From contig JBMNQN010000004.1 of NCBI GenBank assembly GCA_050944155.1, forward strand, positions 1-64,000: 64,000 nucleotides of DNA, read 5' to 3'. The notes under the pieces are model-generated. The model saw only the letters and a program-made list of their open reading frames with translations, did no database searches and was not told the DNA's origin. Below are positions 21,405 to 38,179 of this stretch, piece by piece; positions within the stretch are counted from its first letter, which is position 1; every line of letters begins with the position of its first letter. The position numbers were made by a program, and so were the translations under genes. This DNA is from Candidatus Methanomethylophilaceae archaeon (lineage in GTDB: Archaea > Thermoplasmatota > Thermoplasmata > Methanomassiliicoccales > Methanomethylophilaceae).

Positions 21405-21477
21405 GGACCCTTAGGGTAGCGGATTATCCTGTCGGCCTTCGGAGCCGACGACTCGGGTTCGAATCCCGGGGGGCCCA
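21405..21477 (+). tRNA. tRNA-Arg(TCG), integration target, 3' end replaced by element sequence
   Basis: TCGGC-CTTCGGA-GCCGA anticodon arm; acceptor GGACCCT/GGGGCCC has an A3:C70 mismatch; no encoded CCA. Confidence 0.9.
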
Positions 21478-21497
21478 CTCTTTACATGTCTGGCTAA

Positions 21498-21535
21498 AAT
21501 TCAATGACCTTTTTGGTAGGTCGTCAATGGATTTG
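21498..21535. repeat. Left-end arm-type repeats (attL)
   Basis: AATTCAATGACCT (21498-21510) repeated at 39842-39854; TCGTCAATGG (21521-21530) inverted at 39817-39826; AATGGATTTG at both ends. Confidence 0.8.
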
Positions 21536-21902
21536 AAACGTTTTCGTGTTTGAGGGTATGTTGCCTTTCTCCGAAAATGCCCGTTTTTTTACCAAAGGAT
21601 TTGAACCTGTTGCATCCAGCAAACTGAAAACAGATTCAATGATTGGTAAAAGTCAGTGAAGAAAAACGTGTATTTCATCGAAAAAACGACGTACATCTTT
21701 TTTGGTAGGCTGAAAATCGTGTCGTATTTGTTTCATGTTTGAGTTCACTACTCAAAATCTCAAACGTGAAACAAAATGGCGAAAAGGTAGGTCCGAAAAT
21801 GCCCGATTCCGGTCTCTTGCGGAACAAGAATGATAGAATGATCTGCCTCTTCCCGATCATTTTCTAACACTCTCTTAATACGACTACGACCATCCCGAAT
21901 CG

Positions 21903-24350
21903 ATGAAGGAAAAGGACAGGATTCTCTTCAATGAGGTCAACAGATCGTTGGAGGCCCTATCGTCCGCAACCAACGGTTCAGGATTCATCGAACCCTGTAG
22001 CGTCGAGTCCTTCAAGAACAGCACCAAACAAACAGTTGAATCGGCCAAGAAGAGATCCAAAGGTATCTTCTTCAGACTCGGTCTCGTAAACAAACCGTTC
22101 AAGAGCAGCATAATCGAGTTCCTCAAGAGATACGAGGCCTTCCCAGAGGATGCCCACAAACACAATGTCGAACTGGCAGAGAGACTGCAAGTCGATGTCG
22201 GTCGCATGATCAATCCGGTGGAAGGCAGGGATCTGGACAGACAGCAGCTCACCTCCATCGCCATGGATGTCAACACCCGTCTGGTCATAGCGGGGGCAGG
22301 AACAGGAAAGACCACGACCATCATAGGTCTTGTCAAAGAGCTTCTGATGACGGAGAAGGCCCAACCTGAAGAGATCCTTCTTCTGTCCTTCACAAATGCC
22401 TCTGTCAACGAACTGAAGGAACGCATCCTCAAAGAGACATCTAAGCGCATCGATACCACGACATTCCACAGGTTGGGACTAAAGATTATCGCCTCCACCA
22501 GGGGGAAGACCCCCAATGTATCCCACACGGATTTGAATCAATTCGTCACGGACGAGCTGCAGAGAAGAGTCTCCGACCCTCAGTTCCTGGCTGACTTCAA
22601 CTCATACATAGCATTCGATTACAACTCACAGACCGATGAGTTCGCATTCGCAACGAATGAGGATTACGTCAGGTACGTCAAAGAGAACCCTCTGATCACA
22701 CTCAACGGAGAGAAGGTAAAGAGCTTCGGAGAGGCCGACATCGCCAACTTCCTCGCTATCAACGGGGTGCCGTACACATATGAGGATGCCTATCCGGTCG
22801 ACACCTCGGATGCGAAGCACGGCCACTATCATCCGGACTTCCACATCAACGGCACGAACATCTACATCGAGTACTTCGGAACGGATCGTTACGGGAATGT
22901 GGCACAGTTCATGTTGGATGCCAATCCCAATGCTGCTGAAGTGTACAGACAGTCCATGGAATGGAAGAGGACTATCCATCGGATCAACAACACCGAACTG
23001 GTGGAGTTGTTCGCATACAATAGGTCAGAGGGCACCCTTCTCGAAGACCTGAAGAACCACCTTACCAGACTCGGTGTGGAGATGTCCCCCGCATCCCCGT
23101 CGGATCTGTTCGACAGGATGTTCAACAGCGGCAGGCTGAAATTCAGTATGATAGCATCCTCCATGACCACCGCGATCCTCCTCATCAAGGGTTACGGGAA
23201 ACCGTGGAACGAGGTATACCCGACATCCAAGGACAGGAGGGTAAAGCAGTCCCTGATCAGATTGGAGAAGGTACTAAGGCCGATATACGAAGAATATCAG
23301 GATCAGTTGGCGATCAACGACGAGATAGATTTCGAAGACATGCTTAACATGGCCTCCGAATGCGTCAAGGAAGGCTACATCCATCCTTACAGGTACGTCA
23401 TCGTCGACGAGTACCAGGACATCTCCAGGTCGAGATTCAATCTGCTGAAGGAGATGAGGGCATCGAAGGATTACAGGTTGTTCTGTGTGGGTGACGATTG
23501 GCAGAGCATCTATCGTTTCAACGGCAGCGATGTATCGTACATCCTGGACTTCGAGGACTATTGGGGGCCTTCGGAGATCTGCAAGATAGAAACAACATAT
23601 CGTTTCTCCGGGGAGCTCCTGCAGAAGAGCAGCGAATTCATCATGCGCAACCCCAGACAATTCAAGAAGGACCTGGTGGGCAGAGCGGATGTCGATTGCA
23701 GGATCATCAGATTATCAGCAAAGACCGAAGCGGATGCTTATCAGCGTGTCGCCGAAGAGCTTGCACAGATTCCAGCCAACGAGACTATCCTATTCCTCGG
23801 CAGATACCGTCATGACATCGTGAAGTTGGAGGATATTGGCCTGGAATGGAAACCCAATCTGGATGATGGATCATTCAAGGTAACGGATTCCCGCAGACCG
23901 GAATTAAAGATGACCTTCATGACGATACACGGGTCCAAAGGCCTTCAGGCCTCCCGTGTATTCATCCTGAACAACAAGACCGGGAGCTACGGATTCCCGA
24001 ACGTCAGGGACGAACCGCCCATAATTCCGCTGTTACTGAACAGTCAGGACAACCAACTGGATGAAGAGAGAAGATTATTCTACGTGGCCATGACCCGTGC
24101 CAAGAAGAGGGTTTATTTGGTCGCTGTGAACAACAAGGAATCGAGATTCTACAAGGAGATAGCGAGTTCATCAGGCGGCCAGAGGCGTAGCAACAGACCG
24201 ATCACTTGTCCGATGTGCGGTGGCGATATGGTCCTCAGGAAGGGAAAATACGGATTATTCTACGGGTGCTCTAACTTCCCGAAGACTGGGTGCAAATACA
24301 CTGTCAAATATGAATCTGGCACAAATCAACACAATGTCAGAAAATACTGA
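21903..24350 (+). CDS. UvrD/HelD (helicase IV-like) SF1 helicase with inserted PD-(D/E)XK-like domain and C-terminal topoisomerase-type Zn ribbon
   Basis: AGAGTGKT, VDEYQD, VGDDWQSIYRFNG, TIHGSKGL, EERRLFYVAMTRAK; insert KSFGE...YHPDF...IYIEYFG; CPMC...FYGCSNFP..C. Confidence 0.9.
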   Translation: MKEKDRILFNEVNRSLEALSSATNGSGFIEPCSVESFKNSTKQTVESAKKRSKGIFFRLGLVNKPFKSSIIEFLKRYEAFPEDAHKHNVELAERLQVDVGRMINPVEGRDLDRQQLTSIAMDVNTRLVIAGAGTGKTTTIIGLVKELLMTEKAQPEEILLLSFTNASVNELKERILKETSKRIDTTTFHRLGLKIIASTRGKTPNVSHTDLNQFVTDELQRRVSDPQFLADFNSYIAFDYNSQTDEFAFATNEDYVRYVKENPLITLNGEKVKSFGEADIANFLAINGVPYTYEDAYPVDTSDAKHGHYHPDFHINGTNIYIEYFGTDRYGNVAQFMLDANPNAAEVYRQSMEWKRTIHRINNTELVELFAYNRSEGTLLEDLKNHLTRLGVEMSPASPSDLFDRMFNSGRLKFSMIASSMTTAILLIKGYGKPWNEVYPTSKDRRVKQSLIRLEKVLRPIYEEYQDQLAINDEIDFEDMLNMASECVKEGYIHPYRYVIVDEYQDISRSRFNLLKEMRASKDYRLFCVGDDWQSIYRFNGSDVSYILDFEDYWGPSEICKIETTYRFSGELLQKSSEFIMRNPRQFKKDLVGRADVDCRIIRLSAKTEADAYQRVAEELAQIPANETILFLGRYRHDIVKLEDIGLEWKPNLDDGSFKVTDSRRPELKMTFMTIHGSKGLQASRVFILNNKTGSYGFPNVRDEPPIIPLLLNSQDNQLDEERRLFYVAMTRAKKRVYLVAVNNKESRFYKEIASSSGGQRRSNRPITCPMCGGDMVLRKGKYGLFYGCSNFPKTGCKYTVKYESGTNQHNVRKY

Positions 24351-24462
24351 TTGATTCTCTATCCATTTATTCTTTCATGACATGGCGTTATGAAATCAAG
24401 TCGTGTAATCCCATTAAATATCATGAGAGCCGTAAGAGTATGATTTACAGAGGTGTAAATCC

Positions 24463-25176
24463 GTGAGTCGTAAATACGAATACGTGAAGTGGGAAGAAGC
24501 CCGCCCAGTAAAGATGGAACTCAACCGGATTAACCAGAAGATGTTCAGTTACATCAACTCTAACCATCCGGAATTGTGTTTCGAGGCTAGAGTGATAGGT
24601 AGCGGAAAACGTGGGTTGAATACCCGCGTAGTAAATGGAAACAAAGGTTTCGATTTTGATTTCAATCTAATCATCGACGCCCCTCCAGAAGGGAAAGTCT
24701 GGGTGGCCGATGTAGTAAAACAGATCTTCATGGAAGCGGCAGATTATGCAGTCAAGGGGACGAATTATTCACATCCCAAGGATTCGACCAGGGCCATAAC
24801 AGTTAAAGTCGTGGACAAGAAGAACAGCAAGATCAAACATAGCTGCGACTACGCCATCATCTACTACGGTGATGATGGAGCGTATTATTATCTGCACAAC
24901 GACAAGAACGATGGTTGCAGTTATTCCTTCAACAGACGCGAACTCAAGTATCCGATCGAAGAGATGGAAAGATACATCCAGGAAAATGCTGGACGTTTCT
25001 CGACTACCGGCGGGGATTGGATAGCCGAAGAGTATCTGAAGGTCAAGAACAGCGATAATCAAGACAAGGAATCACACATCCTCTATGTCGAAGCCCTGTA
25101 CAATATCGTCAACCACATCCAACAATGCGATGCTGATGACGAAGAAGACGAATACTACGATGATGACGACGAGTGA
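24463..25176 (+). CDS. Pol-beta superfamily nucleotidyltransferase (CD-NTase/SMODS-like) with acidic tail
   Basis: hIGS...DFDFNL motif and later strand HSCDYAII (third Asp); SD AGAGGTG before GTG start. Confidence 0.72.
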   Translation: MSRKYEYVKWEEARPVKMELNRINQKMFSYINSNHPELCFEARVIGSGKRGLNTRVVNGNKGFDFDFNLIIDAPPEGKVWVADVVKQIFMEAADYAVKGTNYSHPKDSTRAITVKVVDKKNSKIKHSCDYAIIYYGDDGAYYYLHNDKNDGCSYSFNRRELKYPIEEMERYIQENAGRFSTTGGDWIAEEYLKVKNSDNQDKESHILYVEALYNIVNHIQQCDADDEEDEYYDDDDE

Positions 25177-25520
25177 TTATGACCGACTACATGAATCAGT
25201 ACAAGAGGAATGTCAAGGCCATGAATAAAACCAGTAAAGGAACGCCCATGCCAGGAGAGGTATGGTGGGTTTCTAATCTGGATAATATCAAGGATCGCCC
25301 GATTCTTGTTCTTGATTGTTCCTCAGGAATAGTGACGTATCGCAAGTGTACCTCCCAAACCAGTGTGTTTCGTCAGAGGGATACGATTGAGGATTACTAC
25401 GAAGCAGGTCTCGATAAGGCGACCTATGTGGATCCCGAGAGACGCAGTATTTCGAGAACACGTCTTGTCCGTAAGATGGGTGAACTATCAGATTACGACC
25501 GTCAGAAATTTGGCTTATAA
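25173..25520 (+). CDS. PemK/MazF-like toxin-fold protein
   Basis: GEVWWV...KDRPILVL...TSQ...AGLDKATYVD...RKMGELS..D pattern; GTGA overlap with NTase stop. Confidence 0.72.
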   Translation: MIMTDYMNQYKRNVKAMNKTSKGTPMPGEVWWVSNLDNIKDRPILVLDCSSGIVTYRKCTSQTSVFRQRDTIEDYYEAGLDKATYVDPERRSISRTRLVRKMGELSDYDRQKFGL

Positions 25521-25684
25521 ACCGAGGGCGGACCCCCGCCCTCATTAACAATATCGATGTCCACTTTACCTCGAGACGGGAGGTAAAGAACGACAACCGA
25601 CCTCTCAAAACCCCCCTCTAAAGCCGGGGGTTAAGATATATATATGTCACCCGCGGGGGTACCCCGCTGTCTGTCTGTAGATGA

Positions 25685-25717
25685 AAAAGAGTGGTGGACA
25701 AATCGTCCGACCACTTT
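25685..25717 (-). terminator. Hairpin plus T-tract after the ATPase gene
   Basis: AGTGGT-GGAC/GTCC-ACCACT stem followed by TTTTT on the minus strand. Confidence 0.55.
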
Positions 25718-25729
25718 GGTAGTTGTTTA

Positions 25730-26860
25730 TCATTCCGCTTGGCCAGCATCCTGTTTCTCCCCGTAGATCTTCTTGAATCTGAAGGGATGATCCATCGACC
25801 ATTTTCTCCACTCGTATCCCTGCTTCTCGGCCCACCTCCTCAGTGTGGTCTTGGGTGTCTTCAGGGCATATTCTATGGCCTCGTCGGTCAGTCCCATGGA
25901 CTTCAGGATCGCTGCTATGTCAGCATAGTTTTTCACCATCTGGCTCTTCTCAGTTTCGAAGGTCTTGGGGTGCTCCTCGTAGAATCTCTGAACGTATTCC
26001 TTGACCTTCAGACTCGAAGTGTTGCCGAATCCTCTCCAGAAGGAATCGAAATCAAAGGCCTTGTCGTATCTGAGGATGGAGGATTGGGTGTACGCGTCGT
26101 AGAACCATCCTTCCTTCTTGTCCTCATCCGTCCAATCGGTCACGGTCAGGGATACGTGAAGCCATTCCCCGTCCGGAAGCTGTACCTCGCTGGAGTCCAA
26201 ACGGTTCCAATTCGGATCCAGATTGTTCTCCGTCTTCGCTGACTCCCAGGTCTTCTCGGTGTCGTACCTGTACCATTCGCAATCGCAGGTGTAATCGCTC
26301 TTGCGGTCATTCTCGAATTCGATGAATCCGTCCTTGCTGAACAGGATGAGCAGAATATCGAGCTTGCCCCTGTTGGCGATGAGATGGCGGATCTGTTTCG
26401 TAATCGGGCCCTTCCCGTCATCGAGATAGAAGTTGTGGATGTCATCCAGGACTATGGCAATCTGCCTTCCGCAACCGTACAGTTCGGTCAGCTTCAGGTA
26501 GAGCTCGTCGATGCTGTCGACGTGATGCACATGGTCGGGGGTGCCGACCTTCGTACCGTTCCTGTCCTTGTGATACATGAAGACGTTGGTGATGATCTCC
26601 CAATCGCCGCATTCCTGGTATCCGGTGTGAAGCATGTACATCAGGTTCACGCACATCCGCGTCTTCCCCGTTCCTCTGTCACCGGCGATTGCGTGGAAAC
26701 CTCCCGGCTGCAGAAGGTCCCCGAATATGCTCTCATCGTAACCGCTGTCCGACTTCACCTGACAGAATGAGTGGTCCGAAATCGAACGATTGAGGTCCAC
26801 GTCGTTCTTTATATCTGTTTGAGGGGGTTTTGCTACCCCTCCTTTTTGGTCCGGGGTCAT
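25730..26860 (-). CDS. P-loop ATPase with C-terminal HTH
   Basis: Walker A GDRGTGKT, Walker B IVLDD; C-terminal GLTDEAIEYALKTPKTTLRRW. Confidence 0.75.
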   Translation of the reverse strand: MTPDQKGGVAKPPQTDIKNDVDLNRSISDHSFCQVKSDSGYDESIFGDLLQPGGFHAIAGDRGTGKTRMCVNLMYMLHTGYQECGDWEIITNVFMYHKDRNGTKVGTPDHVHHVDSIDELYLKLTELYGCGRQIAIVLDDIHNFYLDDGKGPITKQIRHLIANRGKLDILLILFSKDGFIEFENDRKSDYTCDCEWYRYDTEKTWESAKTENNLDPNWNRLDSSEVQLPDGEWLHVSLTVTDWTDEDKKEGWFYDAYTQSSILRYDKAFDFDSFWRGFGNTSSLKVKEYVQRFYEEHPKTFETEKSQMVKNYADIAAILKSMGLTDEAIEYALKTPKTTLRRWAEKQGYEWRKWSMDHPFRFKKIYGEKQDAGQAE

Positions 26861-27513
26861 TGGGGTACCTCCTTTTCGGACCTCTTCTTGATTAGGGCTT
26901 CGATCTCATCTCTCCTGCGCATGAGAGTGGTCTTGGGGATGTGAAGGTCCCTTGTTATTGATCTCCATGAGTTTCCGGACATGCGTAGTGTGGCGATGGT
27001 ATCGATGGGGATGTCATCCCTTCTCTTCCTTCCGAGGCGGATTCCTTTGGCCTTCCTTGCTTCGATGCCTTCTCTTGTCCTCTGAGCAATAATCTCCCTC
27101 TCCCATTCGGCGATGGCACCGATGATCTGCATCTGCACCTTCCCCATCGGAGTGGTGAAGTCAATCTCCCCGATGTCGGCGCAGATGAGCTTCACGTTGT
27201 AGGATTGGAGATCGGTCATGGTGATGTTCAGCTGTACTAACGATCTCATCACTCTGTCGAGCTTGGTGACGAGGATCGCATCAAACTTGTGTTCTGCGGC
27301 ATCCTGCATGAGACCTTTCCACCCCGGACGATTGGCGTCCTTCGCGGAGGCCTCGTCGGAATATTCACGGAAGACCTCGAATCCCCTGTTCTTCGCCATC
27401 TCCCTCAGACGAGGGAGCTGGTTGGTCTCGTCCTGCTTCTTTGTCGAGACGCGGACATAGATGGCCACCTTCATGCGAACCACCCTGTTCCTGTCCCGAA
27501 AAGGGATGTCCAT
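26857..27513 (-). CDS. Serine recombinase (resolvase/invertase)
   Basis: YVRVSTKKQ, RPG, KLDRVMRS, AEWERE...RTREG, C-terminal HTH. Confidence 0.93.
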   Translation of the reverse strand: MDIPFRDRNRVVRMKVAIYVRVSTKKQDETNQLPRLREMAKNRGFEVFREYSDEASAKDANRPGWKGLMQDAAEHKFDAILVTKLDRVMRSLVQLNITMTDLQSYNVKLICADIGEIDFTTPMGKVQMQIIGAIAEWEREIIAQRTREGIEARKAKGIRLGRKRRDDIPIDTIATLRMSGNSWRSITRDLHIPKTTLMRRRDEIEALIKKRSEKEVPQ

Positions 27514-27774
27514 TTGTCAGTACCTACCGAGGGATATACACCAGAAAGACCCTCGGTGCGTATCCCCCTACTTGCTTTTTTGGGTCCAGAAAATGTGTTC
27601 ATTTTCATAACACATTAAGACTGCATACATGTTGATAATGAATTGCCCAAAAATCAGGTGGTTTCAGTCGTATACTGGCACATCGGTTTCTGACCTCGAA
27701 AAAACCCCTTTGTATACAGCCAATATACGAATTTTCGGAATCGAGTCCGATACATAATTCGTTATTAGATTGTC

Positions 27775-29889
27775 ATGTCGAGAAACGCCCGATTTTACGA
27801 TGACTATATAATATCTGGCAAATATTTCTTTTCAGTTCTATCTAAAGGCGGGATTATCTTGAGTTGTCTGACTGGTTACCTTGACGTGGAAGATGCAGAG
27901 GATTGCATCGAAAAAGAGGTCCAGTTGATCGATGTCAAATCATATCCCGTTAGGGATGTACTTGAGATCCTACTTCAGGACAAGTCCGCCAAGAAGGTCA
28001 AGAAGAACATCATTTGGGCAACGGATGCCTACAAGGGTTATGGAGATAACTGTGGCGATACCAGTCAGATAATCCCGCAGGTGTTCTTCACCGGGAAACA
28101 GATTGTTCTGCAACCTAGGACCGAGAAGGCCTTGGAGCAGCAGCAGGAAAGGACCAGGAAGAAAGCGGAGGTTTTCACCCCCGTTTGGTTGTGCAACATG
28201 ATGAACAACTATGCGGATGAGGAATGGTTCGGCCGCAAGGATGTATTCAATCACGAGAATGGGGATCACACTTGGACAGTGAATGAGGCGAAGATCCAAT
28301 TCCTGGAAGGAAAGACCTGGAAGGATTACGTCGATTCCAGGAGACTGGAGATCACCTGCGGGGAAGCTCCGTACCTGGTCTCCAGATATGATGCGGCGAC
28401 CGGGGATTATGTGCTCCCGTTGCTGAGACGCGTGGGCATACTGGACAGGAAGCTCCGTGTGGTGAACGAGAACGCCGAATCCCTAGAGGAATGGAACAAA
28501 TGGGTCGAGAGGGCGTTCCAGAGCTGCTACGGATATGAATGGCAGGGTGACAGCCTCCTGATTGCGAGGATCAACCTGCTGATGACCTTTTACGATTACT
28601 ACAAGGCGAGATGGGATTCGATTCCAGAACAAGAGCATTTGAAAAAAATTGCTAATGTTATAAGCTGGAATATTTGGCAGATGGATGGTCAGAATGATGT
28701 CGTACCATTTGGAAAACCATACCAAGGATTCCGTCAGATGACGTTATTTGATTCCTTTGAAGAAAATAAAAATCAGGAAACGGAGACGGTCCCTTGTAAG
28801 ATCTATGATTGGAGAAGAGATAATTCGCTGTTATTCAGAGACTGCAAATCGAGGGGTAAGATGAGCAAGAAGATGTTTGATTTTGTGATTGGAAATCCGC
28901 CATATCAGGAGATTAATGACAAAAATACTAGGCAACCACCAGTTTACCATCTTTTCATGGATGCTGCTTTCAAGGTGGGAACAGCGGTTGAATTAATTAC
29001 ACCAGCTAGATTTTTATCAAATGCGGGTCAAACCCCAAAAGAATGGAATCAACAAATGCTCAACGATGAGCATTTTAAAGTGTTGTATTTTGAAAGCGAT
29101 GCCTCTAAGGTTTTTTCAAATACGGAAATTAAGGGTGGAGTTGCAATAACTTACCATGATGACAACAACATTGTTGGTCCTATCGGGACGTTTACCCCTT
29201 ATCCAGAACTGAATAACATAATGAAAAAAGTCTCATCCCACAATTTTACCCCGTTGAGTGAGATTGTTTCATCAAGAGGCACCTATCGTTTCTCTGAACA
29301 ACTATATCTGGACCATCCTGAAGCAAAGGAATATGCTGATACTGGAACAGGCAATATGATTGCTTCAAACACGCTAAGCAATCTTCAAAATGTATTCACA
29401 GATTCGCCTTCGTCCCAAGATTGTGTGAAAATAATCGGTAGACTCGATAACAAAAGAGTTACAAAATTCATTGAGAGACGTTACCTCATCGATAATGAAT
29501 ATCTAAGAACATTCAATGTATTACTTGCTGAAGCCAATAATAATGGGAGATTTGGTGAAGTATTAACTACAACCATCATTGCACCCCCTGACATTGGCGC
29601 ATCTGATACTTTCATCAGTATCGGATGTTTATCCTCCAAAGAAGAGGCCGACAATGTTGCACTATACTTGAAAACCAAATTTTTACGTTCATTACTTGGA
29701 ATCAAAAAAGTTACGCAACATAATCCAAAGTCTGTGTGGGTCCATATACCCATTCTTGATTTTACGCCATCGTCAGATATTGATTGGTCAAAATCTATCC
29801 CAGAGATTGATAGGCAGCTCTATTCCAAATATCATCTTTCTGTAGAAGAAATGGAGTTTATTGAAACTCATGTCCAGGAGATGAACTGA
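27775..29889 (+). CDS. Eco57I-like N6-adenine DNA methyltransferase / RM subunit
   Basis: KAEVFTP, LEITCGEAPY, IGNPPY, ITPARF, low-GC C-terminal TRD; start may be TTG 27859. Confidence 0.88.
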   Translation: MSRNARFYDDYIISGKYFFSVLSKGGIILSCLTGYLDVEDAEDCIEKEVQLIDVKSYPVRDVLEILLQDKSAKKVKKNIIWATDAYKGYGDNCGDTSQIIPQVFFTGKQIVLQPRTEKALEQQQERTRKKAEVFTPVWLCNMMNNYADEEWFGRKDVFNHENGDHTWTVNEAKIQFLEGKTWKDYVDSRRLEITCGEAPYLVSRYDAATGDYVLPLLRRVGILDRKLRVVNENAESLEEWNKWVERAFQSCYGYEWQGDSLLIARINLLMTFYDYYKARWDSIPEQEHLKKIANVISWNIWQMDGQNDVVPFGKPYQGFRQMTLFDSFEENKNQETETVPCKIYDWRRDNSLLFRDCKSRGKMSKKMFDFVIGNPPYQEINDKNTRQPPVYHLFMDAAFKVGTAVELITPARFLSNAGQTPKEWNQQMLNDEHFKVLYFESDASKVFSNTEIKGGVAITYHDDNNIVGPIGTFTPYPELNNIMKKVSSHNFTPLSEIVSSRGTYRFSEQLYLDHPEAKEYADTGTGNMIASNTLSNLQNVFTDSPSSQDCVKIIGRLDNKRVTKFIERRYLIDNEYLRTFNVLLAEANNNGRFGEVLTTTIIAPPDIGASDTFISIGCLSSKEEADNVALYLKTKFLRSLLGIKKVTQHNPKSVWVHIPILDFTPSSDIDWSKSIPEIDRQLYSKYHLSVEEMEFIETHVQEMN

Positions 29890-29890
29890 T

Positions 29891-32800
29891 ATGGTTAGTG
29901 GCGTCAAGATCCACACATCGGAAGCAATTACTCCGATGATCTACGCATACACCACGCCGGAGATCAGGCGCCACGATGGTTGGATCAAGATCGGTTACAC
30001 CGAACAGACCGTGGAGAAACGTATCGGCGGACAGACACATACAGCAGACGTCCAATGGGAGCTCCAATGGAAAGGTACCGCCATATTCGATGACGGTACC
30101 GGAGACACATTCAGGGACGAGGAATTCCACGAATTCCTCCGCAAGCACGGTATCAAACAGCAGACGGAGAACAAGAACGAATGGTTCTGCATCTCCAAGG
30201 AGGAATCATACAGACTGTTCATGGAGTTCAGATCCGAGAGAGGAGCGATCAAGACCAAAGGTGTCATCCCCTACTCTCTCAGGAATGAACAGAACGAGGC
30301 CGTCGAGCGTGCCAATGACTATTTCAAACTCAACCCGGAAGGGGAGTTCCTATGGAATGCCAAACCTCGCTTTGGTAAAACACTGTCAGTTTACGACCTT
30401 TGCAAGCGTCTAGGTGCTAAGGATGTTCTGATTGTCACCAACAGGCCAGCCATAGCCAATTCCTGGTATGACGATTACTGCAAGTTCATCGGTGACGAAT
30501 CCGGATACAGGTTCATCAGCGAGGTAGATGCACTCAAAGGCCAGCCACACGCTATCACTCAAGAGAAATACACCGAACTGAAGAGGACACATCCGGAGAT
30601 CAAGCGCATCGAGTTCCTCAGTCTTCAGGACCTGAAGGGATCCATCTTCTTCGGCGGCAAGTTCGATAAACTAAAGCACATCCGCGATACCGAATGGGAT
30701 CTTCTGGTCATCGACGAAGCTCACGAGGGAGTTGACACCTTCAAGACCGATGTGGCATTCGACCACATTAGGCGCAGGAACACACTGCATCTATCAGGTA
30801 CACCATTCAAGGCCATAGCCAATGACAAGTTCCCGCAGGATGCGATATACAACTGGACATACGTCGACGAACAGAAGGCCAAGAGTGAATGGGTCGACAT
30901 CCCCGGTACCCAGAATCCATATGAGAGATTGCCCACGCTATGTATGTTCACCTACCAGATGTCCGAGATCGTACAGGCAAGGGTGGAACGCGGCATCGAG
31001 ATTGACGGGGATCCCGAAGAGTTTGCATTCGATCTAAACGAGTTTTTCAAGACCAAGGCCAACGGCGAATTCGTCTACGATTCCGCAGTGGATGCCTTTC
31101 TGGATGCACTCGCCAATCAGGAGAAGTATCCGTTCTCAACCGAGGCATTACGCAATGAATTAAAACACACCCTGTGGCTCCTGAACCGTGTCGACAGCGC
31201 AAGAGCTTTAGCAAAGAAGCTCAACGAACATCCGATCTTCAGGACCTTCAAGGTCGTTCTTGCCGCAGGTGACGGCAGCATCTACGATGTCAAGGAGAAC
31301 GAGAAATCCCTTGACAGGGTCAGGAAAGCGATTAGGGAATCCCCCAGGACCATCACACTTTCGGTAGGCCAATTGACCACCGGGGTCACTGTGCCAGAGT
31401 GGACTGCGGTGCTCATGTTGTCCAACATAAGCAGCCCTGCATTGTACATGCAGGCAGCCTTCAGAGCGCAGAACCCCTATTCCTTCAGAGAGGGCAAGGA
31501 ATACCGCAGGAAGGAGACCGCATACGTCTTCGACTTCGACCCCGCCCGGACGCTGGAAATCTTTGAGAAGTTTGCCAACGACCTCTCCGCATCCGCCAAG
31601 AATGATATGGATGCACGCAAGAACAACGTCCGCGAACTCCTGAACTTCTTCCCCGTCATAGGCGAGGACGAAGAGGGTAGGATGATCGAACTGGATGCCG
31701 AGAAGGTCCTGTCGATTCCAAGAGTTCTCCGTTCCAAGGAAGTCGTTCGCAGCGGATTCATGTCCAACTACCTTTTCCAGAACATCAGCAATGTGTTCGG
31801 TTCTCCTGAAGCCGTCATTGACATCATCAAGAAGTTCGACGAAACAAAACAATCCGGCCCGATCACCGCAGGGAAGGCACTCTATATCGATGACGAGGGG
31901 AACGTACAGGTTCCTGAGGACAAGGTCATCGGTACTGCAGTAGGGCTCTTCGGAGACAAGATATACTTCGACCCGGGGCAGTTCGACGATATCATCGACG
32001 ATGCCCAGAACGGTCTCGAACCTCCGAAGGAGGAGCAGGAGATTAAAAAGCTCCTGAATCAGTTCAACAAGGATGTCACCGAACCCATGCTGCAGACTGC
32101 CAAGGACAAGTATGGGAAGGATCTCTCCGCATCATCTCAGAAGACGTTATCACGCAAGATCAACTCCGATGCCGAGACCACCATCAAGAAGGCTGTCAAG
32201 GACCATCAGATCATCCAGAACACCCTGGATTCGGAGATGGAGAATGCCATCAGCACTGTATCCACCATGGAGGAGCGCAACCGTATAGTCCAGGAGTACG
32301 AGGGCAAGAAAGAAGATGCCACAAGGGAATTCAAGCAGGGTCTGAACGGAAGAATCGAACAGCTCGTGAAATCCGCGGGACAGGACATCGCTAGACAGGT
32401 GCAGACCGACCAGGTCAAGAAGGACATCCATGAAGTGGAGGACAAGGTCAGGAGCCATCTGAGGGGATTCACAAGGACAATCCCCGCATTCCTCATGGCT
32501 TACGGGAAGGACTGCGATGTCACTCTCCAGAACTTCGACAAGATAATCCCCGGGAGCGTGTTCAAGGAAGTTACCAGCATAACCCTCCAGGAATTCAGGC
32601 TGCTCCGTGACGGTGGATCCATCGTCAACGAACAGGGCGTGAAAGAATACTACGAAGGTCATCTGTTTGATGAGGTTGTGTTCAACGATTCCGTGAAGGA
32701 GTTCATGAAGCTCAGGAAGAGACTGGCCAATTACTTCGATGAATCATCCGAGGAGGACATTTTCGACTACATCCCGCCACAGAGGACCAACCAGATCTTC

Positions 32801-34033
32801 ACTCCGAAGAAAGTGGTCAGGGACATGGTCAACAAGCTGGAGATCGAGAATCCGGGATGCTTCGATGATGAGACCAAGACCTTCGCCGATCTTTACATGA
32901 AGTCTGGACTATATCTCGCCGAGATCGTTAAAAGGCTCTATCAGAGCAAGCGCATCAAGATGCTATTCCCCGATGACAAGGAACGTCTGGCACATATCTT
33001 CTCCAAGCAGGTATATGGCCTTGCTCCAACGATGATCATCTACCGCATCTGCAAGTCCTTCCTGCTCGGATTCGATGACGATGTCCACATAATCAAGGAC
33101 AATATCCGCCTCTGCGATTCCCTGAAGTTCGCAAAGGACGGAGATCTGGAAGCCGAATTGAAGAAAGTGTTCTCTGACGATTATGAGGAGCCTGTTGATG
33201 ACTATACTGATCCCGAAACTGATTCCAATATAGTAATCGGTGAGTTCCCGGCGTACAAGGAAGCTAAGGACAAGGAGCGCTTCACCGTCACTTCCAGGGT
33301 GAAGAGCGTCAGACAGCCCCGTGGCGGATACATCAACCCCAAGGACATGGACAGGATCGGATTCAGCGACGGTATAGAGCTGTTCGACGAATCCATATCG
33401 CCATCCACGATGGGGATGGTCGTCGACTATATGACACGTTTCGACCAAGGAGCTCCTGCATCGGAGGCCTTCAGGATCAGCATCAAGGGTGCAGAGATGT
33501 GCAACAGGGAGAAGGAAGCGAATTCCTATCTGGAACACATCAAAGGCCTTGATGACGATTCTATACTCAATGCCTGCAGGCTGGTATGGTTTGACCAGGT
33601 CTTCAGGACCGGAACCAGAGGATTCGGAGACCCACTGGATGCCGTTCCTGACCACGAAACATGCGAGAACGTACGTACGATGGTCAAACGTGCTGCCACA
33701 TTCTTCAAACAGTTCGGGCCTGTCGTGGAGGACGGTCCTGTATTCCCCGGAGGATATACAGATGTGATTGTCTCTGGTGACGGTGATTTCACGACCAAAG
33801 ACACGATATGGGACTTCAAAGTCTCCAAAAATGAGCCCACGATTTACAACACGCTGCAGGTCGCCATATATTACCTTATGGCGCACCACTCAATAGTTGA
33901 AAGTCACCGCAAGATATCAAAGATAGGATTGTTCAACCCGCGTCTCAACGCCGCGTACACAATGGATATGAACAAAATCCCTCAATCGACGATAGAAGAA
34001 ATAGAGAAAGACATCATAGGATATGACAAGTAA
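29891..34033 (+). CDS. RM-associated SF2 helicase with N-terminal GIY-YIG-like and C-terminal PD-(D/E)XK-like domains
   Basis: IYAY...KIGYT...EWF; AKPRFGKT; IDEAH; LSGTP; QAAFRAQ; NQIFTP; C-terminal GDGDF...IWDFKVSK. Confidence 0.85.
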   Translation: MVSGVKIHTSEAITPMIYAYTTPEIRRHDGWIKIGYTEQTVEKRIGGQTHTADVQWELQWKGTAIFDDGTGDTFRDEEFHEFLRKHGIKQQTENKNEWFCISKEESYRLFMEFRSERGAIKTKGVIPYSLRNEQNEAVERANDYFKLNPEGEFLWNAKPRFGKTLSVYDLCKRLGAKDVLIVTNRPAIANSWYDDYCKFIGDESGYRFISEVDALKGQPHAITQEKYTELKRTHPEIKRIEFLSLQDLKGSIFFGGKFDKLKHIRDTEWDLLVIDEAHEGVDTFKTDVAFDHIRRRNTLHLSGTPFKAIANDKFPQDAIYNWTYVDEQKAKSEWVDIPGTQNPYERLPTLCMFTYQMSEIVQARVERGIEIDGDPEEFAFDLNEFFKTKANGEFVYDSAVDAFLDALANQEKYPFSTEALRNELKHTLWLLNRVDSARALAKKLNEHPIFRTFKVVLAAGDGSIYDVKENEKSLDRVRKAIRESPRTITLSVGQLTTGVTVPEWTAVLMLSNISSPALYMQAAFRAQNPYSFREGKEYRRKETAYVFDFDPARTLEIFEKFANDLSASAKNDMDARKNNVRELLNFFPVIGEDEEGRMIELDAEKVLSIPRVLRSKEVVRSGFMSNYLFQNISNVFGSPEAVIDIIKKFDETKQSGPITAGKALYIDDEGNVQVPEDKVIGTAVGLFGDKIYFDPGQFDDIIDDAQNGLEPPKEEQEIKKLLNQFNKDVTEPMLQTAKDKYGKDLSASSQKTLSRKINSDAETTIKKAVKDHQIIQNTLDSEMENAISTVSTMEERNRIVQEYEGKKEDATREFKQGLNGRIEQLVKSAGQDIARQVQTDQVKKDIHEVEDKVRSHLRGFTRTIPAFLMAYGKDCDVTLQNFDKIIPGSVFKEVTSITLQEFRLLRDGGSIVNEQGVKEYYEGHLFDEVVFNDSVKEFMKLRKRLANYFDESSEEDIFDYIPPQRTNQIFTPKKVVRDMVNKLEIENPGCFDDETKTFADLYMKSGLYLAEIVKRLYQSKRIKMLFPDDKERLAHIFSKQVYGLAPTMIIYRICKSFLLGFDDDVHIIKDNIRLCDSLKFAKDGDLEAELKKVFSDDYEEPVDDYTDPETDSNIVIGEFPAYKEAKDKERFTVTSRVKSVRQPRGGYINPKDMDRIGFSDGIELFDESISPSTMGMVVDYMTRFDQGAPASEAFRISIKGAEMCNREKEANSYLEHIKGLDDDSILNACRLVWFDQVFRTGTRGFGDPLDAVPDHETCENVRTMVKRAATFFKQFGPVVEDGPVFPGGYTDVIVSGDGDFTTKDTIWDFKVSKNEPTIYNTLQVAIYYLMAHHSIVESHRKISKIGLFNPRLNAAYTMDMNKIPQSTIEEIEKDIIGYDK

Positions 34034-34045
34034 AGGATCTCAGAT

Positions 34046-34732
34046 TCAACTTACTTCGTCATCATCATCGAAGATTAGGGCCCTATCATCTACATCTATC
34101 TGGACGTCGTCATCGTCTCTATCTTTGACTTGTTTGTTTCCAGGAATGTCAATCATCAGTTCCCCCTCTTCATAAGCGACAGAACCACGACCCTGAGAGG
34201 AACAGGTGGCATTGATAAAATCCTGACCTAATACGGACGATTTGTAGAGGATTCTAGCTTTGTTTTCTCTTAATTTGTCAACCATACGTGCAACTGCTAC
34301 ACGAATATAGGTCTGAACAGAATCGAATTTCCATGTGTTTTGGTTTAGTAGAGATATGTATTCCTGTAACCCTTCAGTTATGGAATATGTCACCTTGTAT
34401 GGCTGTTCATCATTCGAATCGTCTTCCAATCCAACCTCAGACTTTTCGCAATAGACATTCAACTGTGTCAAAAGTTCTTCGCTAATTGCAGCTGTACGTG
34501 TCCAATACTCTTTGTTTGATCCTGGATTCGAAGACATATTTTTTAGAATGTAACTCAAAGTGTACTCGTTAAAGCGACGAACAGAATAGATTATGAAATC
34601 GGAACGATTGGTGAAATATTTGGTCATCTTGATCATAGCGACCATATCTTCCATCAATACCTTCGGAAATCTGATGCTGGTAACGTTAGTTTTGAACTGA
34701 ACCACGTCGGAACCGCTGCCCCTTCTAGCCAC
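34046..34732 (-). CDS. Putative repressor with RHH-like domains
   Basis: TSIRFP...NRSDFIIYSVR and a second repeat SVQTYIRVAV; divergent from the RHH operon. Confidence 0.65.
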   Translation of the reverse strand: MARRGSGSDVVQFKTNVTSIRFPKVLMEDMVAMIKMTKYFTNRSDFIIYSVRRFNEYTLSYILKNMSSNPGSNKEYWTRTAAISEELLTQLNVYCEKSEVGLEDDSNDEQPYKVTYSITEGLQEYISLLNQNTWKFDSVQTYIRVAVARMVDKLRENKARILYKSSVLGQDFINATCSSQGRGSVAYEEGELMIDIPGNKQVKDRDDDDVQIDVDDRALIFDDDDEVS

Positions 34733-34785
34733 GGTGTATAATTAATCTCATACTCTTAAATAATTCTGTATACGTTAATAAGTCC

Positions 34786-34803
34786 AAACTTAATATTAAG
34801 TTT
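34786..34803. promoter_or_regulatory. Perfect 18-bp palindrome in the divergent promoter region (candidate operator)
   Basis: AAACTTAATATTAAGTTT between divergent RHH genes, flanked by TATA-like sequence. Confidence 0.6.
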
Positions 34804-34876
34804 TAAATATCGGCCCCGTCCATATCTGTACCGAGGTTGACGGACACTCGGTTCGAAAATCTCAAGAGGCAAAGCT

Positions 34877-35289: not shown

Positions 35290-35395
35290 GGCCCGCCGCA
35301 TCCCGCTCACGGAATCCTATTGCTTCAGACAGTTTAAGGTTTCCGTCTTCTCAGACAGGAACCGCAACCGTCTGCCCACGAAGGGGGGATTGTGA
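35279..35395 (+). CDS. 38 aa micro-ORF
   Basis: G-rich SD upstream; ends in TGATG overlap with the next ORF. Confidence 0.45.
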   Translation: METEARRIPLTESYCFRQFKVSVFSDRNRNRLPTKGGL

Positions 35396-37075: not shown

Positions 37076-38179
37076 ATGGGGAAACAGCCAAGCCTCGACC
37101 AGGAGGTCATGGACAGGCAGAGACTGAAGAGAACGGCCCCCAAGGATCTGCACCTTGGAAGGTACCCCTTCAGCGGCGGGATCAGGTACTATGAGGCCAA
37201 GAGGTCCACGAAATACTCCAGATCCACGATGGAAGAGAACGTCCGCAAGCTCCGCATGTTCGCGAGGATCTTCGAGGAGATGAAGAAGAACGGACTGGTT
37301 AGGACCACCGACCCCAGGTGCATCGACTCGTACGATATTGAGGCCTTCCTGGATTACATGAAGGAAAGGAGACTCGGGATGAATACGAAGGTCAAGTACA
37401 CCAATGTGCTGGAATCGTATCTCGTCACCTTCAACAACTACACCATCGGGGAGATGAAGAGGACCGCAGATTGGCCACTAGCCAGGGACGAGACGGGGGA
37501 GATCTTCTCACTGGAGCTGAATGAGGTCCAGAGGATCTTCGATGCTTTGGATGAATACGAACCCAAATCCGTAAAGAAACTGTGGCACAAGATCGTCCTC
37601 TCAGGCGTCTTCTCCATCATGTTCGGTACCGCCATCAGGCCGAAGGAGATATTCCAGGCCAAGGTCAAGGACATCCATCTGGAGGAGGGCAAGAATGCCT
37701 TCTACGTCGAACATCCGAAGGGCGAGGATTCCTGGGGGAAGAGGGAATGGATCCCGATCATCAGAGGAGATATGGTTGAAAGGATCAAGATCTTCCTCAA
37801 CGAGAGGGCGCAGTTCATCAAGGCCTACCAGCTCCCGGATTCGCAGTACCTGTTCATCAATTTCAGTACTGGACAGCCGTTCACTGGACAGGCCATCAGG
37901 AAGATGAAGTCGGAGATCGAGAAGTTATCCGGCGTCAAATTCAAACTGAAGGACTTCAGAGCAACTTATGCCACCCTGACCGCTGAGAACGATATGGACA
38001 GGTTGAAGAACGTATCCGTCCAGCTCAGGCACAAGAGCGTAGAGACCACCGAAGGTTACTACCTCCGTCTCAGGAGGATGAAGGCACAGAAGAAGATCGC
38101 CGACGTCTGGGAGGAAACCGCGATAGTCGATTCCAAGAAGAAAAGGAAAGAGGAAGAGGAAGGAGGTGAGGACGAATGA
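37076..38179 (+). CDS. Tyrosine recombinase/integrase
   Basis: AIRPKE (R), KDFRATY (K-x-x-R), LRH...TEGYY (H, Y). Confidence 0.92.
   Translation: MGKQPSLDQEVMDRQRLKRTAPKDLHLGRYPFSGGIRYYEAKRSTKYSRSTMEENVRKLRMFARIFEEMKKNGLVRTTDPRCIDSYDIEAFLDYMKERRLGMNTKVKYTNVLESYLVTFNNYTIGEMKRTADWPLARDETGEIFSLELNEVQRIFDALDEYEPKSVKKLWHKIVLSGVFSIMFGTAIRPKEIFQAKVKDIHLEEGKNAFYVEHPKGEDSWGKREWIPIIRGDMVERIKIFLNERAQFIKAYQLPDSQYLFINFSTGQPFTGQAIRKMKSEIEKLSGVKFKLKDFRATYATLTAENDMDRLKNVSVQLRHKSVETTEGYYLRLRRMKAQKKIADVWEETAIVDSKKKRKEEEEGGEDE

What the first reader, a model, noticed from the sequence alone, without database searches (positions are those of the whole stretch)
24463..25520. Nucleotidyltransferase coupled to a PemK/MazF-fold protein: candidate undescribed defence or TA module
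Seen: a 237 aa protein with the Pol-beta NTase signature (IGS...DFD...CD) overlaps (GTGA) a 115 aa protein with PemK/MazF motifs (KDRP, TSQ, AGL...YVD, KMGELS). No MazE/AbrB/RHH antitoxin sits upstream. The NTase ends in a very acidic tail (DADDEEDEYYDDDDE). Known: NTases act as CBASS cyclases, as Hailong HalB, and as MNT antitoxins of HEPN RNases; MazE neutralises MazF through an acidic C-terminus. I know of no described NTase + MazF-fold system. Inference: the NTase either nucleotidylates or tail-binds the RNase (antitoxin), or makes a nucleotide signal or decoy that gates it. The setting is an archaeal defence island.
Basis: partly seen in the sequence, partly recalled or inferred. Interest (0 to 1): 0.82.

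Follow-up and report, generated by a model that had tools for sequence, protein, structure and literature searches.

The report
NTase coupled to MazF-like RNase
An archaeal mobile island carries a MazF-type RNA-cutting toxin gene placed directly behind an uncharacterised cGAS-like nucleotidyltransferase gene instead of a normal antitoxin gene; the pairing is rare but recurs, and it hints at an unusual way of keeping such toxins in check.

Summary
Both genes are real. The 237 aa protein is a catalytically intact Pol-beta nucleotidyltransferase (NTase). Its model resembles CD-NTases (Z 13.7) but matches no Pfam, NCBIfam or PADLOC family. The 115 aa protein has a MazF fold with the conserved RP and TSQ motifs. 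No MazE-type antitoxin gene, repeat array or Rfam RNA lies nearby.

The pairing is rare: 3 of 182 NTase loci and 3 of 32 MazF-like loci. It is not chance, because the same junction (stop, 2 nt, ATG) recurs on two other contigs. In one of them the NTase is only 41% identical while the MazF-like protein is 82% identical.

The NTase family (1,090 representative clusters) is mostly solitary. One clade overlaps Abi_2/AbiD HEPN RNase genes (19 loci), and one archaeal member precedes a GIY-YIG nuclease. The MazF-like gene is confined to one archaeal family and also follows LITAF-like zinc-ribbon or phosphoribosyltransferase genes.

Best reading (0.42): an antitoxin-like NTase restrains the RNase, most likely as MntA restrains HepT. 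Rivals are unlinked genes (0.25), CBASS-like signalling (0.12) and a Hailong-like product inhibitor (0.10, included in the 0.42). Nothing biochemical is shown. I class it as a new variant of a known kind.

The parts
24450..24455 (+). Shine-Dalgarno-like GAGGTG, 7 nt upstream of the NTase GTG start
   Evidence: Read directly from the sequence; function is inferred.
24463..25176 (+). Gene for a 237 aa Pol-beta-superfamily nucleotidyltransferase with a CD-NTase-like fold, belonging to an unnamed family
   Evidence: ORF. Invariant G46 S47 / D64 D66 / D129. pLDDT 93.8. CdnB Z 13.7, DncV Z 13.3. No Pfam, NCBIfam or PADLOC hit. 1,090 representative clusters at E<=1e-3.
25129..25173 (+). Acidic C-terminal tail of the NTase (DADDEEDEYYDDDDE)
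   Evidence: At least 10 D/E in the last 25 residues in 2 of 3 MazF-paired NTases (the third ends SEDDDD), 7 of 7 U460-paired, 0 of 19 Abi_2-paired and 6 of 119 in no partner cluster. pLDDT is 63-79 in this stretch.
25179..25520 (+). Gene for a MazF-fold protein (113 aa from ATG 25179; 115 aa if read from GTG 25173), the presumed endoribonuclease toxin or effector
   Evidence: Foldseek MazF hits at E 6e-5 to 5e-4, TM 0.60-0.66. PemK_toxin PF02452 E 0.066, below threshold. phrog_1936 'MazF-like growth inhibitor' E 1.4e-4. NCBI names some cluster members PemK/MazF family toxin.
25524..25543 (+). Perfect 8-bp GC-rich stem with a 4-nt loop, 4 nt after the MazF-like stop; a likely operon end
   Evidence: Read from the sequence. 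Non-homologous GC-rich hairpins follow the MazF-like gene in L122, L124, L130, L132 and L170. No T-run follows, and the terminator scan did not list it.
21405..21478 (+). Context: tRNA-Arg(TCG), the probable integration site of the island that carries the pair
   Evidence: ARAGORN. A 22-nt imperfect direct repeat lies at 21493-21514 and 39837-39858, 86% identical.
21903..24350 (+). Context: UvrD/GajB-like SF1 helicase with a Topo-type zinc ribbon, immediately upstream; not part of the conserved unit
   Evidence: Pfam and PADLOC. No helicase match next to the pair in L162 or L170. A 98.7% identical copy in G072 is followed by only the first 32 codons of the NTase.
25730..27513 (-). Context: AAA-type ATPase (376 aa) and serine recombinase (218 aa), convergent with the pair
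   Evidence: Pfam: Resolvase E 2.5e-40; AAA_25 and AAA_22 weak.
37076..38179 (+). Context: tyrosine integrase near the distal end of the island
   Evidence: Phage_integrase E 4.6e-15.

Best explanation
The two genes form a translationally coupled two-gene toxin/regulator module on an integrated mobile island of a Methanomethylophilaceae archaeon. The downstream MazF-fold protein is an endoribonuclease toxin or effector. The upstream CD-NTase-like nucleotidyltransferase sits where an antitoxin normally sits and acts as its negative regulator. My preferred sub-mechanism is enzymatic neutralisation as in the type VII HepT/MntA system, where the NTase covalently nucleotidylates the RNase near its active site (about 0.20). 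Second is MazE-like occupation of the RNA groove by the acidic tail (about 0.12). Third is an NTase-made oligonucleotide that blocks the RNase (about 0.10). Loss of NTase supply or activity, through phage infection or loss of the island, would free the RNase. Shown: gene structure, folds, conserved catalytic residues, recurrence of the pairing, and partner patterns. Inferred: toxicity, neutralisation, its chemistry and the trigger.
For: (1) The NTase keeps its catalytic residues: G46, S47, D64, D66 and D129 are invariant in 36 sequences, in the 9 archaeal-clade sequences and in L170. The MazF-like protein keeps the RP and TSQ motifs, which align to the QRP and VTSN stretches of solved MazF-mt1. 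(2) No other antitoxin candidate exists. (3) The pair recurs with the same stop-2nt-ATG junction in L162 and L170. The NTase is 87% and 41% identical while the MazF-like protein is 63% and 82% identical, so the architecture survived both deep divergence and re-assortment. (4) The three MazF-paired NTases sit in one small clade (SH-aLRT 84) with a GIY-YIG-paired NTase. (5) The same NTase family is overlap-coupled (-14 to -44 nt) to Abi_2/AbiD HEPN RNases in 19 of 182 loci, which is 17 unique rows and 15 of the 18 rows of one clade. This parallels MNT-HEPN, where the NTase AMPylates the RNase (PMC7641770 and PMC11586414, abstracts). (6) AbiF-type HEPN proteins are neutralised by an element encoded immediately upstream, an ncRNA (PMC13064643, passages). 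That is the position the NTase gene holds here. (7) The MazF-like gene is translationally coupled to whatever lies upstream: LITAF-like in 5 loci, PRTase in 3, NTase in 3. (8) Weak support: contigs from RNA libraries of three studies cover the unit, and two of them bridge the junction (X15 24462-25480; X16 24937-25222).
Against: The pairing is rare: 3 of 182 full-length NTase loci, 3 of 32 MazF-like loci, none in 261 genomes of the order apart from the window, and 0 of 119 and 0 of 29 in the first two screens. 94 of 182 NTases have no close co-directional downstream ORF (not corrected for contig ends) and no widely shared upstream partner, so the enzyme has a life of its own. 9 of 32 MazF-like loci have no upstream ORF of at least 45 aa and 12 have only singleton ORFs, so this RNase often exists without any visible protein antitoxin. 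The NTase is not an MNT by sequence (no NTP_transf_2 hit), and its structural neighbours are cyclases and TUTases, not MntA. In G072 the island lost the pair. No activity, toxicity or binding has been measured.
Confidence: 0.42

Rival explanations
1. There is no functional link. The NTase is a self-sufficient accessory enzyme of phage, ICE or island origin. The MazF-like gene is an autonomous orphan toxin or RNase module that recombines into the 3' end of many operons and merely borrows upstream transcription and translation.
For: Most NTases are solitary or lie in phage synteny: 94 of 182 have no close downstream partner and 21 of 182 sit beside a phage ParB-methylase with 36-74 nt gaps in most. 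The MazF-like gene follows at least three unrelated gene types and often nothing. DNA similarity between MazF-like loci starts and ends at the ORF. The NTase and MazF-like phylogenies are incongruent. The pair was lost from a 98.7% identical island in G072.
Against: The identical stop-2nt-ATG junction in three loci spans 41% NTase identity. The NTase family repeatedly overlaps nuclease genes: Abi_2 in 19 loci, MazF in 3, GIY-YIG in 2 loci that are one contig. An active MazF-type RNase with no neutraliser would be hard to maintain.
Confidence: 0.25
2. CBASS-like positive signalling: the CD-NTase-like enzyme senses infection and makes a nucleotide second messenger that activates the downstream RNase effector.
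For: The best structural neighbours are CD-NTases, namely CdnB, DncV, CdnG, CdnE and cGAS. The nearest named Atlas clusters are SMODS and DncV-like, at 0.85, which is a lead only. The gene order of cyclase then effector, the island setting, and a variable effector set in the family (MazF, HEPN, GIY-YIG) resemble CBASS logic.
Against: There is no SMODS, DncV or PADLOC Cdn hit. The protein is only 237 aa. The 113 aa MazF-like protein has no recognisable ligand-sensing domain, only a low-confidence basic N-terminal stretch of about 25 aa. No Cap2, Cap3 or HORMA genes are present. Half of the family has no adjacent effector.
Confidence: 0.12
3. Hailong- or Panoptes-like guard (a subset of the best explanation, listed separately because it is distinct): the NTase constitutively makes a template-independent oligonucleotide that occupies the single-strand-binding active site of the RNase. 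Phage nucleases or binding proteins that remove this product unleash the RNase.
For: Precedents: HalB makes poly-dA that keeps HalA off (PMC13434031, passages); an ncRNA blocks the AbiF HEPN site (PMC13064643, passages). One NTase family partners two unrelated RNase folds and a GIY-YIG nuclease, whose common property is nucleic-acid binding. Re-assortment of partners is easier if inhibition runs through a generic product and not a co-evolved interface. A conserved Tyr-rich segment follows D129, with Y134, Y135, Y141 and Y143 nearly invariant and Y154 invariant; HalB primes synthesis on a tyrosine.
Against: There is no sequence or listed structural match to HalB (absence from a top-50 list does not exclude it). 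No product is known. The acidic tail suggests a protein-level contact instead.
Confidence: 0.1

Closest known systems
MazEF / PemIK type II toxin-antitoxin systems
   Same: The downstream gene has the MazF fold with the conserved RP and T-S-Q motifs. It is the second, translationally coupled gene of a two-gene operon. The upstream protein ends in an acidic tail; that MazE's C-terminus is acidic and binds the MazF groove is recalled, not tested.
   Different: The upstream gene is a 237 aa enzyme and not a roughly 80 aa AbrB/RHH DNA-binding antitoxin. The small protein scores below the PF02452 threshold (13.9 against 23.1 bits). The family has a conserved basic N-terminal extension of about 25 aa.
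HepT/MntA (HEPN-MNT) type VII toxin-antitoxin system
   Same: A Pol-beta NTase gene lies directly upstream of, and is coupled to, a small RNase toxin gene. The NTase catalytic residues are conserved. Sister clades of this NTase pair with HEPN (Abi_2) RNases. MntA neutralises HepT by (poly)adenylylation (PMC7641770, abstract).
   Different: The NTase is not an MNT: it has no NTP_transf_2 hit, is about twice the size (MNT size recalled), and has a CD-NTase-like fold with a C-terminal helical domain. The toxin in the window is MazF-fold, not HEPN.
CBASS (CD-NTase plus effector)
   Same: The best structural match of the NTase, the NTase-then-effector gene order, and the defence-island setting.
   Different: No sequence membership, a much smaller protein, an effector without a nucleotide-sensor domain, and no ancillary Cap genes.
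Hailong (HalA/HalB) and AbiF-type type III systems
   Same: A negative regulator is encoded immediately upstream of a toxic effector, and in both precedents the regulator acts through a nucleic acid (PMC13434031 and PMC13064643, passages).
   Different: The effector here is a soluble RNase and not an ion channel. No HalB similarity was detected. No ncRNA or repeats are present.

Membership tests
Pol-beta nucleotidyltransferase superfamily | hG[GS] ... [DE]x[DE] ... [DE] catalytic pattern on the NTase beta-sheet | tested here: met
   G46-S47, D64-x-D66 and D129 are invariant in 36 sequences. They lie on strands E40-45, E63-71 and E123-135 of the model.
CD-NTase / SMODS (CBASS cyclases) | Overall cGAS/DncV-like fold | tested here: met
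   VIA Z 13.7 (CdnB, 187 aligned, rmsd 3.7), 13.3 (DncV) and 12.8 (CdnG), above TUTases and OAS at about 10. Foldseek E 4.8e-8.
CD-NTase / SMODS (CBASS cyclases) | Sequence membership (Pfam SMODS PF18144 or DncV-like PF21654; PADLOC Cdn models) | tested here: not met
   0 Pfam families at E<=1, 0 PADLOC, 0 NCBIfam. The Atlas gives only a 0.85 lead.
CD-NTase / SMODS (CBASS cyclases) | Adjacent effector with a nucleotide-sensing domain (SAVED, STING, etc.) | tested here: not met
   The adjacent protein is 113-115 aa with a MazF fold only.
CD-NTase / SMODS (CBASS cyclases) | Synthesis of cyclic oligonucleotides | not testable with these tools
   Needs enzymology.
MazF/PemK toxin family | MazF/CcdB-type SH3-like barrel fold | tested here: met
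   60 PDB hits at E<=1e-3, and all 31 rows shown are MazF or its homologues (YdcE, MoxT), TM 0.60-0.66. Model pLDDT 82.9.
MazF/PemK toxin family | Pfam PF02452 above the gathering score | tested here: not met
   13.9 bits against a 23.1 cutoff. One homologue (P0126) carries a precomputed PF02452 hit. PHROG MazF-like E 1.4e-4. NCBI names some members PemK/MazF toxin.
MazF/PemK toxin family | Catalytic Arg (RP motif) and Thr/Ser (T-S/T-Q motif) | tested here: met
   R42-P43 are nearly invariant and T60-S61 invariant. They align to QRP and VTSN of MazF-mt1. That these are the catalytic residues is recalled from the MazF literature.
MazF/PemK toxin family | Cognate upstream MazE/PemI-type antitoxin | tested here: not met
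   The upstream gene is the NTase, and there is no small DNA-binding ORF.
MazF/PemK toxin family | Sequence-specific endoribonuclease activity and toxicity | not testable with these tools
   Needs expression and cleavage assays.
HepT/MntA type VII TA | MNT-type minimal NTase (NTP_transf_2) | tested here: not met
   No PF01909 hit at E<=1. No MNT structure is among the top 50 VIA rows, which alone is inconclusive.
HepT/MntA type VII TA | HEPN RNase toxin with the Rx4-6H motif | tested here: not met
   The window partner is MazF-fold. HEPN (Abi_2) partners occur only in other clades of the NTase family.
HepT/MntA type VII TA | Covalent nucleotidylation of the toxin | not testable with these tools
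   Needs intact-mass spectrometry.
Hailong | HalA-type transmembrane effector next to a HalB NTase | tested here: not met
   No membrane effector is adjacent, and neither protein has a PADLOC hit. HalB similarity was not detected, which is inconclusive for the fold.

The most novel reading that the evidence does not exclude
This unnamed CD-NTase-like family (1,090 representative clusters, in Bacillota, their phages and Methanomethylophilaceae) is a general enzymatic antitoxin that guards unrelated nucleases: MazF, AbiD/F-type HEPN, GIY-YIG and perhaps a HicA-like domain. It would do so by synthesising, without a template, a short oligonucleotide or protein-linked polymer that plugs their single-strand-binding active sites. 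That would be an enzymatically produced type III-like antitoxin, analogous to Hailong but controlling RNases, and present in archaea.
Probability: 0.1. Interest if true: 0.85.

Novelty: new variant of a known kind. Interest (0 to 1): 0.6.

Why it matters
MazF toxins are textbook type II toxins neutralised by small DNA-binding antitoxins. A MazF-fold RNase whose only partner is an intact nucleotidyltransferase would extend enzymatic (type VII-like) or product-mediated neutralisation to a second, unrelated RNase fold, and to archaea. The larger point is the NTase family itself. It is sizeable, structurally CD-NTase-like and unannotated, and it is overlap-coupled to AbiD/F-type HEPN RNases at the position where those proteins normally carry their RNA antitoxin. 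One set of experiments (toxicity and rescue, mass adducts, product analysis) would decide whether it is an antitoxin, a signal generator or a Hailong-like guard.

Tried and rejected
- **Complex prediction:** two MazF-like chains plus one NTase chain with my own alignments gave no verdict (ipSAE 0.19 and 0.11, mark 0.32). This is no evidence either way.
- **PDB profile search with the NTase alignment:** 0 hits at E<=10.
- **Family libraries for the NTase:** PHROGs (only phrog_23284, E 0.064), PADLOC and NCBIfam gave nothing usable.
- **BFVD viral fold search:** one uncharacterised giant-virus protein (E 2.9e-6) and nothing informative.
- **Viral-contig scan for the MazF-like family:** none found.
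- **Earlier scan notes:** none by place or by either sequence.
- **Helicase as a third component:** rejected, because it has no match beside the pair in L162 or L170.
- **Hidden antitoxin:** no conserved small ORF, no Rfam hit at E<=1, and no repeat array other than the codon repeat of the acidic tail.
- **Mobile cassette or integron-like idea for the MazF-like gene:** not supported. Loci share only 65-76% nucleotide identity, confined to the ORF, and the downstream hairpins are not homologous.
- **Fused NTase-effector proteins:** none among the best 150 representatives. The longer forms are tandem NTase-NTase or carry extensions with no Pfam hit.
- **Parts of the locus without RNA-contig cover:** 24196-24417 and 25528-25675 had zero depth in the four laid runs. 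Contigs cannot show absence, so I do not interpret this.
- **Promoter scan:** it uses a bacterial sigma-70 model and is not applicable to an archaeon.
- **Supplements of PMC13107127** (list of 164 tested archaeal MazFs): closed. They might include a member of this family.
Full report
**1. What is in the sequence**

Two co-directional ORFs lie at 24463..25176 (237 aa, GTG start) and 25173..25520 (115 aa). Both are genes:
- The large-database search found 94 homologues of the first protein and 45 of the second.
- In an alignment of 36 NTase sequences, G46, S47, D64, D66 and D129 are invariant.
- In 24 small-protein sequences, T60, S61, G79, L80 and D87 are invariant, and K40, D41, R42, P43, C59 and Q62 are nearly so.
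- M3 is nearly invariant and most homologues are 113 aa. The likely start of the second gene is therefore ATG 25179, which gives TGA, 2 nt, ATG and not a GTGA overlap.

A GAGGTG lies 7 nt before the NTase start. A perfect 8-bp hairpin (25524-25543) follows the second gene.

**2. What the proteins are**

- **The NTase.** It has no hit in Pfam, NCBIfam, PADLOC or (usefully) PHROGs, and no sequence hit in the PDB.
  - Its AlphaFold2 model is confident, with pLDDT 93.8.
  - The model resembles CD-NTases: Foldseek gives 7ljo CdnB at E 4.8e-8.
  - The Foldseek-independent search gives Z 13.7 (CdnB), 13.4, 13.3 (DncV), 12.8 (CdnG) and 11.7 (CdnE). TUTases and OAS follow at about 10.
  - The ESM Atlas' nearest named clusters are SMODS and DncV-like at 0.85, which is a lead only.
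  - It is therefore a catalytically intact, compact, CD-NTase-like member of the Pol-beta superfamily from an unnamed family.
  - That family holds 1,090 representative clusters at E<=1e-3, 670 at <=1e-10 and 166 at <=1e-30.
- **The small protein.** Its model has pLDDT 82.9, with the first 25 or so residues at low confidence.
  - The model matches MazF structures at E 6e-5 to 5e-4 and TM 0.60-0.66.
  - Sequence evidence is sub-threshold for Pfam PemK_toxin (E 0.066) but concordant with the fold.
  - NCBI labels some members of the 90% cluster 'PemK/MazF family toxin' in Methanomethylophilus alvi.
  - The RP and T-S-Q motifs align with those of solved MazF-mt1. That they are catalytic is recalled.

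**3. Setting**

The genome is a 1.04 Mb archaeon. Its family is Methanomethylophilaceae, judged from protein and locus names.

The pair lies on what looks like an 18-kb integrated island:
- tRNA-Arg at 21405-21478;
- an imperfect 22-nt direct repeat at 21493 and 39837 (two-copy repeats can arise by chance);
- a UvrD/GajB-like helicase, AAA ATPase, serine recombinase and Eco57I-type methylase;
- a ResIII+T5orf172 protein, tyrosine integrase and DUF4357 protein.

A complete genome of another genus (G072) carries a 98.7% identical helicase. It is followed by only the first 32 codons of this NTase and then an unrelated gene. The island was therefore shared recently, and the pair was lost there.

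No small ORF with antitoxin features, Rfam RNA or repeat array lies in 24200-25800.

**4. Is the pairing conserved?**

*Mostly not.*
- The MazF-like profile hit 0 of 119 NTase loci from genome and viral collections.
- In the archaeal order, the MazF-like gene occurs in 66 of 173 other genomes of the window's family and in 0 of 87 genomes of other families.
- The NTase occurs in 11 of 173 genomes. It never shares a contig with a MazF-like hit.
- 0 of 29 MazF-like loci had the NTase within 1.5 kb.

*But it recurs.*
- A metagenome scan with the archaeal NTase subclade gave two contigs with the identical junction: L162 and L170.
- Window against L162: the NTase is 87% identical and the MazF-like protein 63%.
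- Window against L170: the NTase is 41% identical and the MazF-like protein 82%.
- The two genes have therefore been re-assorted while the architecture was kept.
- The window's MazF-like protein is closer to copies with other partners (72% and 68%) than to the NTase-paired L162 copy.
- In a tree of 164 unique NTases (of 182 full-length; 10 partial hits of 192 were dropped), the three MazF-paired NTases group with one GIY-YIG-paired archaeal NTase (SH-aLRT 84, quick method).

**5. The wider pattern**

*Downstream of the NTase.* Among the 182 full-length NTase loci (many are near-duplicates, so they are not independent), the close co-directional downstream gene is as follows:

| Downstream gene | Loci | Note |
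|---|---|---|
| Phage ParB_N + N6_N4 methylase | 21 | gaps 36-74 nt in most; synteny |
| Abi_2/AbiD HEPN | 19 | overlaps of 14-44 nt; 17 unique rows; 15 of 18 rows of one clade plus two long-branch archaeal rows |
| Unknown 460 aa protein ("U460") | 7 | weak HicA-like C-terminus, E 5e-4 |
| PrgI | 4 | |
| Zinc-ribbon protein | 4 | |
| MazF-like | 3 | |
| GNAT | 3 | |
| GIY-YIG | 2 | one contig fetched twice |
| None | 94 | not corrected for contig ends |

The remaining 25 loci have downstream ORFs that fall in small clusters or are singletons. Upstream partners are likewise not broadly conserved.

*Acidic tail* (at least 10 D/E in the last 25 residues):
- 2 of 3 MazF-paired NTases, with the third ending SEDDDD;
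- 7 of 7 U460-paired;
- 0 of 19 Abi_2-paired;
- 6 of 119 assigned to no partner cluster.

*Upstream of the MazF-like gene.* In 32 loci:

| Upstream gene | Loci |
|---|---|
| LITAF-like zinc-ribbon/TM protein (PF10601) | 5 |
| Phosphoribosyltransferase (PF00156) | 3 (two nearly identical) |
| NTase | 3 |
| Singleton ORF | 12 |
| No ORF of at least 45 aa | 9 |

Nucleotide similarity between these loci is confined to the ORF, at 65-76%.

**6. Expression**

Contigs from four metatranscriptome runs (three studies) lie on it without mismatches. X15's 1,019-nt contig spans 24462-25480. X16's contig 24937-25222 bridges the junction. Contigs cannot prove a single transcript, and RNA libraries can hold DNA, so this is a weak hint.

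**7. Interpretation**

- **Chance adjacency is unlikely,** given the three identical junctions across deep NTase divergence.
- **The NTase as negative regulator is the most economical reading.** It takes the antitoxin position and retains catalysis. Its family is coupled to a second, unrelated RNase toxin family, AbiD/F HEPN. The natural neutraliser of that family is encoded at exactly this upstream position, as an ncRNA (PMC13064643, passages).
- **The closest mechanistic precedent is HepT/MntA.** There an upstream NTase adenylylates the RNase (PMC7641770 and PMC11586414, abstracts).
- **I put the negative-regulator reading at 0.42 in total:** type VII-like 0.20, tail binding 0.12, Hailong-like product 0.10 (HalB precedent: PMC13434031, passages).
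- **Against it:** the pairing is rare, most NTases are solitary, and many MazF-like copies have no visible partner. I therefore give 0.25 to 'co-transcribed but functionally independent'.
- **CBASS-like activation gets 0.12.** The fold fits, but the effector lacks a sensor domain and sequence membership fails.
- **The rest is unassigned.** The complex prediction gave no verdict.

**8. Novelty**

No NTase+MazF system, and no NTase partner for AbiD/F, appeared in:
- PADLOC, Pfam or NCBIfam;
- four full-text searches;
- the passages read from the HEPN survey (PMC3710099) and the 2026 Abi review (PMC13064643).

This does not exclude subscription-only literature or supplements. I class it as a new variant of a known kind, a toxin/regulator module with a new partner combination. 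The NTase family itself is the more interesting lead.

Noticed in passing
Loci L073, L078, L079, L092-L094, L096, L097, L102, L156, L159, L190, L192, L200, L201, L205, L206, L223, L224: One clade of the same NTase family overlaps (by 14-44 nt) a downstream Abi_2/AbiD-type HEPN gene with the RNxxxH motif, in Bacilli and Mollicutes MAGs, viral contigs and two archaeal genomes. The NTase sits where AbiF-type proteins carry their ncRNA antitoxin. I found no description of this pair.
   Followed up: partly
L122, L132, L143, L146, L147 (upstream of the MazF-like gene): A 61-69 aa LITAF-like zinc-ribbon protein with a central hydrophobic helix overlaps the start of the MazF-like gene in 5 of 32 loci. 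It may be a membrane-anchored antitoxin or partner.
   Followed up: partly
L124, L126, L128 (upstream of the MazF-like gene): A 199-230 aa phosphoribosyltransferase (PF00156, UPRTase-like) precedes or overlaps the MazF-like gene. This is a second nucleotide-metabolising enzyme in the antitoxin position.
   Followed up: partly
L123 1888-2397 and L125 1857-2390 (MazF-oriented coordinates): In these two loci the MazF-like gene has no upstream partner but is followed, with an overlap in L125, by a 169-177 aa protein. Its 'ARLAQLGDSVLDL' stretch looks like an RNase III signature; this is by eye and was not scanned.
   Followed up: no
L161 (G072) 1468-1596 and 1709-3091, minus strand: A complete genome of another genus has a 98.7% identical helicase followed by an NTase remnant (the first 32 codons are identical, then it breaks). 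An unrelated 222 aa gene replaces the rest. This indicates recent inter-genus transfer of the island and loss of the pair.
   Followed up: partly
window 21405-39858: A probable 18-kb integrated element at tRNA-Arg(TCG), bounded by an imperfect 22-nt direct repeat (21493-21514 and 39837-39858). It carries both a serine recombinase and a tyrosine integrase.
   Followed up: partly
window 27775-34033: An Eco57I-type methyltransferase (704 aa) is immediately followed by a 1,380 aa protein with T5orf172 (GIY-YIG-like) and ResIII helicase domains. This is probably an unusual restriction-modification or defence pair.
   Followed up: no
L015, L017, L018, L070, L088-L090: A conserved three-gene block: a 332-338 aa membrane protein, an NTase with an acidic tail, and a 460 aa protein with weak PADLOC hits (HEC-07 E 1e-5; HicA-like C-terminus E 5e-4). 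It occurs in Christensenella-like MAGs and viral contigs.
   Followed up: partly
Proteins P0180, P0195, P0208, P0226: Tandem NTase-NTase fusions (376-444 aa, two matched stretches). P0180 keeps GS and DxD in both halves. P0305 carries an unannotated C-terminal extension of about 150 aa.
   Followed up: partly
L012 (fetched again as L151) 1189-2115: The archaeal NTase closest to L170's is followed, after a 36-nt gap, by a 308 aa GIY-YIG-domain protein instead of MazF. This looks like partner replacement within the archaeal clade.
   Followed up: partly
window 25135-25169: The acidic tail is encoded by an imperfect 9-nt tandem repeat (GATGACGAA, 3.9 copies). Tail length could therefore vary by slippage.
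   Followed up: no
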